Source: Escherichia coli
GTDB taxonomy: Bacteria; Pseudomonadota; Gammaproteobacteria; Enterobacterales; Enterobacteriaceae
Direction: 5' to 3' (one strand)
Assembly (NCBI RefSeq): GCF_030013595.1
Contig: NZ_CP122768.1
DNA length: 64,000 nucleotides
Position 1 is the stretch's first letter; every line of letters starts with the position of its first letter. Below are positions 24,001 through 27,000 of the stretch, in pieces. Position numbers: made by a program.

Positions 24001-27000
24001 TAAAACGTATCTGCAATGTACGTGAACAGAGTGCATTAAGCATCCGTCTGAGCGGTAAACATATCCGACCTGGTGAGTGACAGTCTGAGAGACCGGTTAA
24101 GTGGTGGCTCGGGAGTAATGAGTTTGGGGTGGGTACCAGAATGCCAGTCTGGCGGTATGCTGACAGTATCACGTTAATTGCAGCATAAAGTGATGAGAGG
24201 CTAATGGAAGTTAAAACCAAAGCAGTTCCGTCGTTGTTCATCCCGGGAGACGCTGGAAAAAGTGATTTCCCACACGCGTTATAAACTTACCTCTGCGGAA
24301 CTGGAAGCCTTCAACTCTGTGGTTGATCACTGGCTGGCAGAACTGACAATGAACAAGCTTTACGATCGTGTTCCCGCTTCAGTCTGGAAATATGTCATCT
24401 GAGCGTTCGGTAATCACAACTGCATCGCACCAGGTGTTATCCGCTTTGTGATTCTTATTGGCTCTTCTCAGGTTATTAAAAGCTGAATATGTTCCTGTTG
24501 TCGGGAACCAGGATAATACCGGGAACGTTAAGCGGTATAGCGACAACAAAGAATTCGAAATCAAAAGGGAATGGTGCCGGAGGCGTGGGCGGTAATGGGC
24601 TGATTTTCAGGTATTACCGGCTTACAGCGTGTGGTTGATATTGAGGGGCTGTGAGTTTCGCGTATTTGTCAGAAACCCAGACGAGTTTTCCTGTATGGGA
24701 CGAAATAAGGCAGCGGCAATACCTGGAAAAATTTAATATGGTATGAAGGAGAACCTGTCGGTTACGCTTAATATACCCGGTACACTGTCAGCTCAGGGGA
24801 TACATGAACCGTTATCTCACCAGCTACACAGTATATACACACTGACTGACGCTGACAGTAGTCAGCAGGACCACAATAATCAGTGCCAGCAGTATGGTAA
24901 CGATACGGTCTGTATTCCGGTAATAGCCGAAGGGGTCGACAGAACCACAATACGGGCAACATGTATTATGAGTAATCGCGTTTCCACAGTCCCTGCACTT
25001 CTTTTTGCGTATCACCATAACTCCCTCCTCACAGCCTTACCCGTAACCGGTTTTTTACATTAAAAAAACAACGCTGAAAATTCAACCGTCAGTCCGGAGA
25101 CGATAGTTGGGGTATCACAGAGTGCCTGAGACAGTGTCCTGCCGGAGGTCACTTCAGGGACTCTGCGCATTTTTTACGACGTGGCTATTCCGTATGAACC
25201 ATACGGAGATTTAACCATGACCTACAAATACAACCCCTTCTGGCAGCAACGTATTCGTGAGACGGTGCGGCACGCACTGAATGTTCATCCCCGCCTGACG
25301 GCATTGCGGGTTGACCTGCGTTTCCCGGATGTACCGGCAGCAACGGACGCAGCTGTGATATCCCGCTTCATCAATGCCCTGAAAGCCCGAATCGACGCTT
25401 ACCAGAAACGTAAGCATCGGGAAGGTAAACGCGTGCATCCCACCACCCTGCATTACGTCTGGGCCCGGGAGTTTGGGGAGTGCAAAGGTAAAAAACACTA
25501 TCACCTGATGCTGCTGGTTAACCGGGATACCTGGTGTCGTGCCGGTGATTACCGTGCTCCGGGATCACTGGCCGGGATGATTAAACAGGCGTGGTGCAGT
25601 GCCCTGGGAGTGGATGTCGGGTGCCATGCCACGCTGGTGCATTTTCCGGCCTGGCCGGCGGTGTGGCTGGAACGCGATGATGACACTGGCTTTCAGCAGG
25701 TGCTGGAACGTGCTGACTATCTGGCGAAGGAACATACCAAAGCTCACTGCACCGGTGAGCGCAATTTTGGCTGTAGCCGGAGTTGAGCACGACTGGCGCG
25801 CCAATATCCGGCAAACCAAAAGTATGGGTTGTTGTCTGGCGGCAACGATGTATCCACTCGCCCACTGACTGTTTTTTACGTCAGTGTTCCATTGTGTGAC
25901 AACCACAGTGCTGTAACAGCAACCAGCCTGCTTTACCCAAACTCCAGTCCAGATTTTAACTGAACCGCCATTCACACCCTGACCACGCTGCCCGTACCGG
26001 GACGGCTGTTGCCTGCGTGTCGTCTGGCGGCTAAGGAATATGACTATGTACGCAAAATCCTTTATCGCTCTTGATGGCAACGGACGTCTGACGGGCGCCC
26101 GTACTGCACAGGCCGCACCTTATGCTAACTACACCTGCCACTTGTGTGGCAGTGCACTCAGATACCATCCGCAATACGACACTGAACTTCCCTGGTTTGA
26201 ACACACTGACGACAGGCTGACAGAGCACGGTCAACAGTGCCCTTATGTCAGGCCGGAGCGCAGAGAAATACAGTTGATTAAACGTCTGCAGCAATTCGTA
26301 CCGGATGCCTTACCCGTGGTGCGTAAAGCCAGCTGGCACTGCAGACAATGTCACCACGATTATTATGGGGAGCGGTACTGCACACACTGCCAGACCGGAG
26401 GATTCAGTATTCCCCGGACAACTCAGGAGGAAATATGCGAATTCTGAACTGTTATATGGCGAATGACAGCAAAGGCCATTTTGTTACGGCGAAAGAAGCA
26501 GCGAAGCACAACCGCCAGGACGTTTTGTGCTGTGTGTCCTGTGGATGCCCGTTAACACTTCAGCGGGGCAATGACGGACAACCACCGTGGTTTGAACATG
26601 ACCAGATGACTGTCGCTGAGAAAATCCTGCTGCGATGCACCTGGCTTGACCCGGCAGAGAAAGAGGCCCGTCGTTTGCATCTGCAGGGTATGACGGTTCC
26701 GGATTATACGGTGAAGGTGAGAAAGTGGTTTTGTGTGATGTGTGACGAAAATTATGAGGGGGAAAAGTGCTGCCCGAGTTGTGGTACCGGGGTATACAGC
26801 AGGGAGGGGGGGCAGGAGGGCAACTGGAAGGATAGGAACTGAGCGGTTCAGTCGCGGAAATCAGTTGCAGAGCTGTAATGATATCTCCGGGAGTGCTGCG
26901 TTGGTAGGGGCATCCCGGGATAGAGAAATTTTAGCACTTTGCCCTGAATGATTGTAGACGTCCCGAGTACTCGTACCGGTCTGAGTTATTACAGTTAGAT

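What the first reader, a model, noticed from the sequence alone, without database searches (positions are those of the whole stretch)
26040..26842. Translationally coupled pair of paralogous double zinc-ribbon proteins of unknown function
Two ~135-aa ORFs, each with its own SD, overlap by 13 nt (A stops at 26447, B starts at 26435). Both share the same unusual architecture: a first site C-x2-C ... PWFEH ... C and a second knuckle W-x-C-x2-C-x3-Y-x-GE-x(1-2)-C-x2-C-x-TG, with alignable N-terminal regions, so they are diverged tandem duplicates kept as a pair. I cannot place them in any characterised family; they do not look like Ogr/Delta, TraR/DksA or Com. They sit in the variable cargo slot right after the YagK-like HUH gene, the position where P4/CP4-type islands often carry accessory or phage-interaction modules. 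A heterodimeric nucleic-acid-binding regulator or a small two-component phage-interference module are both plausible, but this is speculation.
Basis: partly seen in the sequence, partly recalled or inferred. Interest (0 to 1): 0.72.

Follow-up and report, generated by a model that had tools for sequence, protein, structure and literature searches.

The report
Zinc-ribbon gene pair beside YagK
Two overlapping, related genes for small zinc-binding proteins of unknown function sit in the conserved core of a genomic island found in most E. coli, next to the YagK nuclease-like and AlpA genes. They are real and under selection, but already catalogued, and nothing here shows a new kind of system.

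Summary
ORF A (most likely 26046-26447, not 26040) and ORF B (26435-26842) overlap by 13 nt, each has a Shine-Dalgarno sequence, and they are paralogues (31% identity, E 3e-15).

Both match Pfam DUF7828 (PF25165, E about 1e-31) plus Zn_ribbon_11 (PF11682). They are identical to RefSeq 'putative zinc ribbon protein' and 'zinc-ribbon domain-containing protein'. The YagK-A-B segment occurs in 3094 of 5426 complete E. coli genomes. I found no paper, solved structure, defence-system model or NCBIfam model that covers them.

The 13-nt overlap is kept in 8 genera, and both genes are under purifying selection (dN/dS about 0.1-0.3).

They are not variable cargo. In 32 of 34 loci, relatives lie directly downstream of a YagK/inovirus-Gp2-like (HUH-motif) gene or of alpA, at the edge of the conserved island backbone. 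In Serratia the same module is fused to a YagK-like domain that has lost its catalytic motifs.

My best reading, inferred only, is that they are zinc-finger accessory subunits working with the island's YagK-family HUH proteins on island DNA. An AlphaFold test gave no support for a compact A-B heterodimer (pTM 0.37), but the test was weak.

Interest is moderate to low.

The parts
26046..26447 (+). ORF A: 133-aa DUF7828 + Zn_ribbon_11 protein, identical to RefSeq WP_000270974.1 'putative zinc ribbon protein'. An alternative in-frame ATG lies at 26040.
   Evidence: RefSeq start; Pfam; AF2 pLDDT 87.3; dN/dS 0.09-0.29.
26435..26842 (+). ORF B: 135-aa paralogue with the same two domains, identical to RefSeq WP_001221623.1 'zinc-ribbon domain-containing protein'.
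   Evidence: dN/dS about 0.10-0.28.
26435..26447 (+). 13-nt overlap of the stop of A with the start of B (ATGCGAATTCTGA). This is the translational-coupling junction.
   Evidence: The same 13-nt overlap occurs in 10 loci from 8 genera.
26425..26430 (+). Shine-Dalgarno AGGAGG of B, inside the 3' end of A.
   Evidence: Read directly.
26033..26037 (+). Shine-Dalgarno AAGGA of A, 8 nt before the ATG at 26046.
   Evidence: Read directly. TAAGGA is conserved in the leader alignment.
25965..26030 (+). Conserved non-coding leader upstream of A. Its near-invariant core is CTGCCC-N5-GGGACGGCT (25988-26007). Function unexplained.
   Evidence: alignments; unique in the window; 0 expected by chance; once in each of 20 loci that match, always just upstream of the A-type gene; 82-92% identity against 69-74% for the A coding sequence in 6 genera.
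25217..25786 (+). YagK/YfjJ-like 'inovirus Gp2 family' gene directly upstream. It keeps the HUH motif (HYHLMLL, 25496-25516) and the YxxK motif (YLAKE, 25718-25732).
   Evidence: both motifs conserved in all 14 upstream YagK-like neighbours.
23288..23494 (-). alpA (TorI/Xis-like HTH regulator) of the same island core. In many other loci alpA lies directly upstream of the A-type gene on the same strand.
   Evidence: hits PDB 8c3t 'AlpA family' and TorI 1z4h.
22599..23201 (-). 200-aa hypothetical protein that follows alpA ('AlpA-downstream' family). It recurs next to zinc-ribbon genes in other loci and matches no family model.
   Evidence: No hit in NCBIfam, PHROGs or Pfam.
27126..28745 (+). ISL3-family transposase pseudogene that ends the conserved module right after B. 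In other genera a second, motif-less YagK-like gene sits at this position.
   Evidence: no YagK2 remnant in the window.

Best explanation
A and B are small proteins with two predicted zinc sites: an N-terminal C2HC finger domain (DUF7828, possibly CoiA_N-like), a linker helix, and a C-terminal C4 zinc ribbon. They belong to the conserved core module of CP4/P4-integrase-type genomic islands, not to its cargo.

They most likely act as detachable zinc-finger accessory subunits that work with the island's YagK/YfjJ-family HUH (rolling-circle Rep-like) proteins. They would recognise island nucleic acid, or tether the nuclease to it, during DNA processing after the island is activated by AlpA.

A is translated first, and B is translationally coupled to it through the 13-nt overlap.

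Shown: the genes, their paralogy, the conserved coupling, purifying selection, the conserved synteny with YagK-like genes and alpA, and the fusion to a YagK-like domain in Serratia.

Inferred: zinc binding, nucleic-acid binding, physical partnership with YagK-family proteins, and any role in island replication or mobilisation.
For: (1) Synteny. In 32 of 34 non-identical loci from E. coli, Salmonella, Citrobacter, Mixta, Hafnia, Yokenella, Yersinia, Serratia, Ewingella and others, the zinc-ribbon gene lies on the same strand next to a YagK-like gene. The arrays are [YagK][AlpA][A][B][YagK2] or [AlpA][X][YagK][A][B][YagK2]. Distant single-copy members keep [YagK_YfjJ_C][AlpA][zinc ribbon].

(2) Domain fusion. 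Six mutually divergent Serratia proteins (45-52% identity to the query P0320, 454-468 aa) fuse DUF7828 + Zn_ribbon_11 to a domain of about 320 aa. That domain is homologous to the adjacent YagK_YfjJ_C protein (phmmer E 1.9e-18; alignment; Pfam).

(3) The upstream YagK-like neighbours keep the HUH (HYH) and YxxK motifs, so a nuclease partner is plausibly active.

(4) Both genes are constrained (dN/dS about 0.1-0.3), and the overlap is conserved in 8 genera.

(5) The family is small. Only 291 representatives at E <= 0.001 were found among 1.84 billion proteins, almost all stand-alone proteins of about 130 aa. It is absent from 50,697 phage genomes and rare on plasmids (33 of 72,556). It is tied to this island type.

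(6) The N-terminal domain has weak, repeated similarity to CoiA_N, the putative zinc finger of a DNA-processing nuclease. The C-terminal knuckle resembles RanBP2-type fingers.
Against: - There is no experimental datum of any kind.
- The pI values are neutral (7.06 and 6.86), which is not typical of general nucleic-acid binders.
- YagK-family genes exist without any zinc-ribbon gene, for example yfjJ in K-12 CP4-57. The zinc-ribbon proteins are therefore not obligatory partners.
- B is pseudogenised in several loci (L015, L022, L028, L029, L030), and A in one E. coli strain.
- The domain fused in Serratia has lost both catalytic motifs. The fusion therefore argues for association with the YagK fold, not with nuclease chemistry.
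- Adjacency alone can reflect shared regulation rather than physical partnership.
Confidence: 0.35

Rival explanations
1. A and B are sequence-specific transcription regulators of the island (an Ogr/Delta-like role, possibly autoregulatory). They would bind the conserved element just upstream of A and control island or helper-phage genes, independently of YagK.
For: They are small zinc-finger proteins placed directly after the regulator alpA in 17 loci. A highly conserved non-coding element containing an imperfect inverted repeat (CTGCCC...GGGACGG) sits once per locus, about 40-60 nt upstream of the A-type gene. It is better conserved than the coding sequence.
Against: No Ogr_Delta or other transcription-factor family appears even at E <= 10. 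The pI is neutral. The Serratia fusion to a YagK-like domain is not explained by this reading. The leader element is absent upstream of stand-alone B-type genes.
Confidence: 0.2
2. A and B bind proteins rather than nucleic acid. They would be zinc-ribbon adaptors or inhibitors that modulate the YagK-like HUH protein, its motif-less paralogue, or a host factor.
For: The pI is neutral. Zinc ribbons commonly mediate protein contacts (general knowledge). The gene is adjacent to, or fused with, catalytically dead YagK-like domains.
Against: No interaction has been tested. The AlphaFold2 A-linker-B model gave no compact complex, although A-YagK was not modelled.
Confidence: 0.15
3. A and B are a two-gene phage-interference or anti-mobile-element module carried as island cargo.
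For: In K-12 CP4-57 the position after the YagK homologue yfjJ holds the defence genes abpAB and rnlAB. Defence or conflict cargo follows the zinc-ribbon genes in several loci.
Against: There is no meaningful PADLOC hit (best E 0.035, covering the ribbon only). The genes are part of the conserved backbone, with the same neighbours across genera, not a variable slot. No enzymatic or effector domain is present. B is often pseudogenised.
Confidence: 0.1
4. The pair is a functionless remnant that decays neutrally inside a cryptic element.
For: These islands are IS-ridden. Here ISL3 follows B, elsewhere IS110 or IS66 splits or truncates the pair, and some copies carry stop codons.
Against: dN/dS is about 0.1-0.3 for both genes across genera. 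The metal ligands are invariant, and the overlap and Shine-Dalgarno sequence are conserved.
Confidence: 0.05

Closest known systems
Pfam DUF7828 (PF25165) + Zn_ribbon_11 (PF11682, formerly DUF3279); UniProt 'Ybl85'; RefSeq 'putative zinc ribbon protein'
   Same: Both proteins are full-length, above-threshold members with the family's invariant ligands.
   Different: Nothing differs. This is the family itself, and it has no assigned function.
N-terminal putative zinc finger of the competence protein CoiA (Pfam CoiA_N, PF25164). CoiA is a PD-(D/E)XK nuclease that resolves the transformation D-loop (bioRxiv 10.1101/2024.02.06.579203).
   Same: Weak but repeated similarity over the C-x2-C ... F-x-H segment: B at E 0.35, P0320 at E 0.1, 9 of 70 family members at E <= 0.1, best 1.3e-3. 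Both are small fingers at the N-terminus of, or next to, a DNA-processing nuclease.
   Different: A and B have no PD-(D/E)XK nuclease domain and no CoiA C-terminal region. The similarity is below threshold. The taxa and context differ: Firmicutes competence genes against Enterobacterales islands.
RanBP2-type and other C4 zinc ribbons (for example ZRANB2, PDB 2k1p)
   Same: The W-x-C-x2-C ... C-x2-C knuckle pattern is shared. The family profile picks up a eukaryotic protein made of RanBP2-finger repeats (P0314) and gives a weak hit to 2k1p (E 0.24).
   Different: The inter-knuckle spacing is 9 residues, not 10, and Tyr replaces the signature Asn. No Pfam zf-RanBP hit was found. The structural matches are only generic rubredoxin or ribbon pieces.
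Ogr/Delta zinc-finger late-gene activators of P2/P4 (P4 Delta is a tandem duplication of an Ogr-like unit; from my own knowledge)
   Same: Both are small zinc-finger proteins of P4-integrase-type elements, present as a tandem duplicate.
   Different: No Ogr_Delta Pfam hit appears even at E <= 10. The ligand spacing and the two-domain architecture differ, and no P4 sid/psu/delta context is present.
Zinc-finger modules attached to HUH endonucleases, such as IS91-family transposases and Helitron Rep (from my own knowledge, not tested here)
   Same: A zinc-binding module is associated with an HUH-family domain. Here that association is by adjacency in 32 of 34 loci and by fusion in Serratia.
   Different: No sequence relationship was shown. 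In most loci the zinc module is a separate polypeptide, and in the fusion the HUH-family domain has lost the HUH and Tyr motifs.

Membership tests
DUF7828 / Zn_ribbon_11 family ('putative zinc ribbon protein', Ybl85) | Significant match to Pfam PF25165 over the N-terminal ~87 residues | tested here: met
   A scores E 2.8e-31 and B E 7.7e-31, both over the full model length.
DUF7828 / Zn_ribbon_11 family ('putative zinc ribbon protein', Ybl85) | Significant match to Pfam PF11682 at the C-terminus | tested here: met
   A scores E 1.3e-9 and B E 7e-18.
DUF7828 / Zn_ribbon_11 family ('putative zinc ribbon protein', Ybl85) | Conserved ligand pattern C-x2-C ... F-E-H ... C and W-x-C-x2-C-x9-C-x2-C | tested here: met
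   These columns are invariant or at least 90% conserved in 70 sequences. The x9 spacing holds in 120 of 122 relatives.
DUF7828 / Zn_ribbon_11 family ('putative zinc ribbon protein', Ybl85) | Actual binding of two zinc ions | not testable with these tools
   This needs metal analysis of purified protein.
CoiA competence nuclease family | CoiA_N zinc-finger domain (PF25164) | tested here: inconclusive
   Only sub-threshold hits were found: B at E 0.35, P0320 at E 0.1, 9 of 70 members at E <= 0.1, best 1.3e-3.
CoiA competence nuclease family | PD-(D/E)XK nuclease domain (PF06054) following the finger | tested here: not met
   The proteins are 133 and 135 aa and consist only of the two zinc domains. 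No nuclease-domain hit was found.
Ogr/Delta transcription activators | Ogr_Delta zinc-finger domain (C-x2-C-x22-C-x4-C) | tested here: not met
   The family is absent from the Pfam hit lists even at E <= 10, for A, B and 70 relatives. The ligand spacing is different.
TraR/DksA C4 zinc-finger family | zf-dskA_traR domain | tested here: not met
   No hit was found in Pfam or NCBIfam.
RanBP2-type zinc finger | W-x-C-x2-4-C-x3-N-x6-C-x2-C signature and a zf-RanBP profile match | tested here: not met
   The spacing is x9 with Tyr in place of Asn. There is no Pfam zf-RanBP hit, and only a weak PDB sequence hit to 2k1p (E 0.24).
Known anti-phage defence systems (PADLOC-DB 2.0) | Match to a defence-system protein model | tested here: not met
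   A has no hit. B hits only PDC-S64 at E 0.035, over about 30 residues of ribbon.
Accessory subunit of YagK/YfjJ (inovirus Gp2-like, HUH) proteins (proposed functional class, not an established family) | Conserved genomic association with a YagK-family gene | tested here: met
   32 of 34 loci have a same-strand YagK-like neighbour. Fusion proteins exist in Serratia.
Accessory subunit of YagK/YfjJ (inovirus Gp2-like, HUH) proteins (proposed functional class, not an established family) | Physical interaction with the YagK-like protein, or joint action on DNA | not testable with these tools
This needs biochemistry.

The most novel reading that the evidence does not exclude
The YagK-AlpA-zinc-ribbon cluster is an unrecognised HUH-based DNA-processing system (replication or mobilisation) of the very common CP4/P4-integrase islands. 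In it, the A/B zinc-ribbon pair would be the nucleic-acid-recognition subunits, possibly acting at the conserved CTGCCC-N5-GGGACGGCT element upstream of A. They would serve an active YagK nuclease and its catalytically dead paralogue.
Probability: 0.2. Interest if true: 0.6.

Novelty: already known. Interest (0 to 1): 0.35.

Why it matters
CP4-type islands (Ag43, CbtA/CbeA, AlpA, YfjI, YagK) are present, often in several copies, in most E. coli and in many other Enterobacterales. Yet the function of their conserved core, beyond the integrase and AlpA, is essentially unknown.

This work shows three things. The zinc-ribbon pair belongs to that core, it is tied to YagK-family HUH proteins by synteny and by fusion, and it is preceded by a strongly conserved cis element. 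Together these give a concrete, testable handle on what the core does: replication, mobilisation or regulation.

If the pair turns out to be only a minor regulator, the result still has a use. It corrects the 'cargo/defence' reading and the misleading database names, such as 'RNA polymerase beta subunit'.

Tried and rejected
- **A-B heterodimer.** AlphaFold2 on A-(GGGGS)6-B with 10 paired rows gave pLDDT 70.5 and pTM 0.37, with no gain over the monomer (pLDDT 87.3, pTM 0.58). This is no support, but the test is weak: the paired alignment is shallow, MAFFT put all unpaired rows on the A half, and the tool returns no PAE.
- **AlpA-box idea.** The invariant leader core GGGACGG contains the hexamer GGGACG, which is the AlpA binding element of P. 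aeruginosa AlpA (PMC9371919, PMC7969949). I rejected this as evidence. The island AlpA is a 68-aa TorI/Xis-like protein that hits PDB 8c3t and 1z4h but not the P. aeruginosa antiterminator. The second half of the Pseudomonas motif (N5-GGTA) is absent, and no -10 element follows. The shared name and hexamer are probably coincidence.
- **RNA structure in the leader.** RNAalifold found a small hairpin with no compensatory changes, and the folding z-scores are -0.43 (RNA) and -0.71 (DNA). There is no Rfam hit in 23000-28000.
- **Direct Pfam confirmation that the Serratia fused domain is YagK_YfjJ_C.** Only the adjacent stand-alone protein passes, and hhalign against the window-type YagK profile failed (probability 1.2%). 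Homology rests on phmmer to the adjacent 350-aa YagK_YfjJ_C protein (E 1.9e-18) and on the full-length alignment.
- **K-12 pseudogenes yoeG and yoeH as remnants of the pair.** No similarity was found. Neither the CP4-44 nor the CP4-57 locus of K-12 contains a family member. CP4-6 was not checked.
- **Repeats, promoters and terminators around the pair.** Nothing exceeded chance, apart from one promoter-like site upstream of yagK.
- **Literature.** Searches for DUF7828, PF11682, DUF3279, Ybl85, the WP accessions, PF11726 and 'inovirus Gp2' plus zinc found nothing functional.
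Full report
**Observation.** The window encodes two same-strand ORFs. A ends at 26447 and B runs from 26435 to 26842, so they overlap by 13 nt (ATGCGAATTCTGA). B has an AGGAGG 4 nt upstream of its ATG. A has an AAGGA that is only 2 nt from the ATG at 26040 but 8 nt from the ATG at 26046. RefSeq starts A at 26046, and orthologues begin MYAKSF or MFAKSF. 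I therefore take A as 26046-26447 (133 aa).

A and B are 31% identical over 118 residues (E 3e-15). Both match Pfam DUF7828 (E about 1e-31) followed by Zn_ribbon_11. In a 70-sequence family alignment the residues C31, C34, F51, H53, C99 and C102 are invariant. C65, W97, Y106, G108, C112, C115, G118 and S121 are at least 90% conserved. This predicts a C2HC site and a C4 site.

**Are they real genes?** The 2-kb YagK-A-B segment is present at 80% coverage or more in 3094 of 5426 complete E. coli genomes. A alone occurs at 7486 places in 3767 genomes, and B at 5021 places in 3423 genomes. Where the B of this window is missing, I found one of three things: a divergent B-type gene (UC4316), an IS that splits the pair (TW10590), or an IS that truncates B (GN05476).

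A genome-wide scan of one genome per species returned 21 loci in Enterobacterales genera. In 10 loci from 8 genera the same 13-nt overlap is kept. Pairwise Nei-Gojobori dN/dS is about 0.1-0.3 for both genes wherever dS is not saturated. Both genes are therefore constrained coding sequences, and the coupling architecture is ancient. B is nevertheless broken in five of the 21 loci, so it is dispensable in some hosts.

**What family?** The profile search of 1.84 billion representatives found only 291 relatives at E <= 0.001. Almost all are stand-alone proteins of about 130 aa. NCBIfam, PHROGs and PADLOC gave nothing meaningful. A PDB sequence search gave only weak generic ribbon hits, with ZRANB2 2k1p at E 0.24.

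The only remote lead is sub-threshold similarity of the N-terminal domain to CoiA_N and DUF7830. CoiA is a PD-(D/E)XK nuclease that resolves the transformation D-loop, and it carries a putative N-terminal zinc finger (bioRxiv 10.1101/2024.02.06.579203). Literature searches for every name I could find returned nothing functional.

**Context.** The island is CP4-44-like, with Ag43, the YeeP-type GTPase, CbtA/CbeA, YfjI, AlpA and an Hha-like gene. I mapped four families across all fetched loci with HMMs: the zinc-ribbon proteins, YagK-like proteins, AlpA, and the protein that follows alpA. This gave two recurrent same-strand arrays, [YagK][AlpA][A][B][YagK2] and [AlpA][X][YagK][A][B][YagK2][X2].

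In Citrobacter and Ewingella the two zinc-ribbon genes are separated by an X paralogue. In more distant members a single zinc-ribbon gene follows [YagK_YfjJ_C][AlpA]. In total, 32 of 34 non-identical loci have a YagK-like gene beside the zinc-ribbon gene.

Variable cargo starts only after the module. It is ISL3 plus metabolic genes here, the Dpd cluster in Citrobacter, conflict systems, or T6SS/Rhs genes. The pair is therefore backbone, not cargo. The family has no homologue in 50,697 phage genomes and is rare on plasmids. The CP4-44 and CP4-57 loci of K-12 lack it, and in CP4-57 yfjJ is followed directly by abpAB and rnlAB. That absence probably explains why nobody has studied it.

**Link to YagK-family proteins.** All 14 upstream YagK-like neighbours keep an HUH motif (HYH plus hydrophobic residues) and a YxxK motif. 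The downstream 'YagK2' paralogues (Pfam UCP030791) lack both.

In Serratia, six proteins of 454-468 aa (45-52% identical to the query P0320) carry DUF7828 + Zn_ribbon_11 fused to a domain of about 320 aa. That domain is homologous to the adjacent 350-aa YagK_YfjJ_C protein (phmmer E 1.9e-18; alignment; Pfam). In the fused domain HYH has become F-[LVA]-[HQ], and the YxxK tyrosine and lysine are lost. The domain order, zinc ribbon followed by a motif-less YagK-like domain, mirrors the gene order B then YagK2 in other genera. This Rosetta-stone-type evidence is the strongest pointer to function.

**Mechanism (inferred).** I propose that A and B are zinc-finger accessory subunits that act with the island's YagK-family HUH proteins on island nucleic acid. 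B is made by translational coupling to A. The confidence is modest (0.35), for these reasons:
- The pI values are neutral.
- No DNA-binding fold is recognisable.
- YagK genes can exist without a zinc-ribbon gene.
- The fused YagK-like domain is catalytically dead.

A linker-fused AlphaFold2 model of A and B gave pTM 0.37 and no gain in confidence. The heterodimer idea is therefore unsupported, but it is not excluded. The rival readings are a transcription regulator, a protein adaptor or inhibitor, a defence module, and a decaying remnant. They are weighed in the rival section of this report.

**An unexplained cis element.** The roughly 60 nt upstream of A (25965-26030) are more conserved across genera than the coding sequence: 82-92% against 69-74% identity. 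The near-invariant core is CTGCCC-N5-GGGACGGCT. It is unique in the window, with 0 expected by chance. It occurs once in each of 20 loci that match, always just upstream of the A-type gene, whether yagK or alpA precedes it.

It shows no compensatory changes and no unusual folding energy, and there is no Rfam match. Its core contains the P. aeruginosa AlpA-binding hexamer GGGACG. However, the island AlpA is a TorI/Xis-like protein with no detectable relationship to that antiterminator. I treat the match as coincidence. The element is a good candidate operator or processing site for experiments.

**Verdict.** The 'cargo slot' reading does not. The proteins are already catalogued (Pfam, RefSeq, UniProt), are identical to sequences annotated in many E. 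coli genomes, and belong to no characterised system. Nothing found here shows a new kind of mechanism. The new elements are the consistent tie to YagK-family HUH proteins, the Serratia fusion, and the conserved leader. Together they make the function testable. Interest is 0.35.

Noticed in passing
window 25965-26030 (core 25988-26007): A non-coding leader upstream of A is more conserved across genera than the A coding sequence. Its near-invariant core is CTGCCC-N5-GGGACGGCT. It occurs once in each locus that matches and is unique in the window. It has no covariation, no unusual folding energy and no Rfam hit. It contains the P. aeruginosa AlpA-box hexamer GGGACG, but that regulator is unrelated to the island AlpA.
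   Followed up: partly
L017 5815-6471, L018 5815-6471, L019/L020 5882-6454, L031 5725-6450, L006 6852-7391 (Pfam UCP030791): A second YagK-like paralogue directly downstream of B lacks both the HUH and the YxxK motifs. The array therefore pairs a predicted active HUH protein with a dead paralogue. This gene is missing from the window, where ISL3 follows B.
   Followed up: partly
L012 2797-4161, L039 8001-9401, L040 2772-4178 (proteins P0320, P0322-P0326): Serratia encodes proteins of 454-468 aa that fuse the DUF7828 + Zn_ribbon_11 module to a diverged, motif-less YagK/Gp2-like domain. These genes sit next to one or two stand-alone YagK_YfjJ_C genes.
   Followed up: yes
window 22599-23201 (-), and paralogues in L002 3294-3620 and 4022-4555, L006 7502-8089: A 200-aa protein family that follows alpA recurs, often duplicated, interleaved with the YagK-like and zinc-ribbon genes. 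It matches nothing in Pfam, NCBIfam or PHROGs.
   Followed up: partly
window 24824-25018 (-): A 64-aa ORF has a C-x2-C ... C-x2-C knuckle followed by a hydrophobic, probably transmembrane, tail. RefSeq annotates it as hypothetical (WP_001427456.1). It lies just upstream of, and divergent from, yagK.
   Followed up: no
window 24253-24402 (+): A short Hha/YmoA-family gene (46-49 aa) matches only positions 28-71 of the 72-residue Hha model. It looks N-terminally truncated, and one other strain annotates the equivalent gene as a partial hha.
   Followed up: no
window 27126-28745 and 28825-29117: An ISL3-family transposase pseudogene with an internal stop lies immediately after B. It is followed by a gamma-glutamyltransferase fragment. 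The island backbone is cut here by IS activity.
   Followed up: no
L013 (MAG labelled Collinsella), L014 (MAG labelled Bacillota), P0037 (MAG labelled Veillonella): Sequences nearly identical to E. coli (84-96% to A or B) appear in metagenome bins assigned to Gram-positive taxa. This is most likely binning contamination, not real distribution. P0037 is also an A/B chimera of 197 aa.
   Followed up: no
UniProt/AFDB entries listed (for example B7MMF4, A0A2H3MKC2): Many family members are named 'DNA-directed RNA polymerase, beta subunit/140 kD subunit'. Nothing in the sequence or the model supports this name, so it looks like propagated mis-annotation.
   Followed up: no
L002-L005 6651-12390: In Citrobacter the A-type gene is immediately followed by QueD (PTPS), DpdD and a PLD/helicase cluster, which is the Dpd 7-deazaguanine DNA-modification system. 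This shows that the cargo junction lies right after the zinc-ribbon gene.
   Followed up: no
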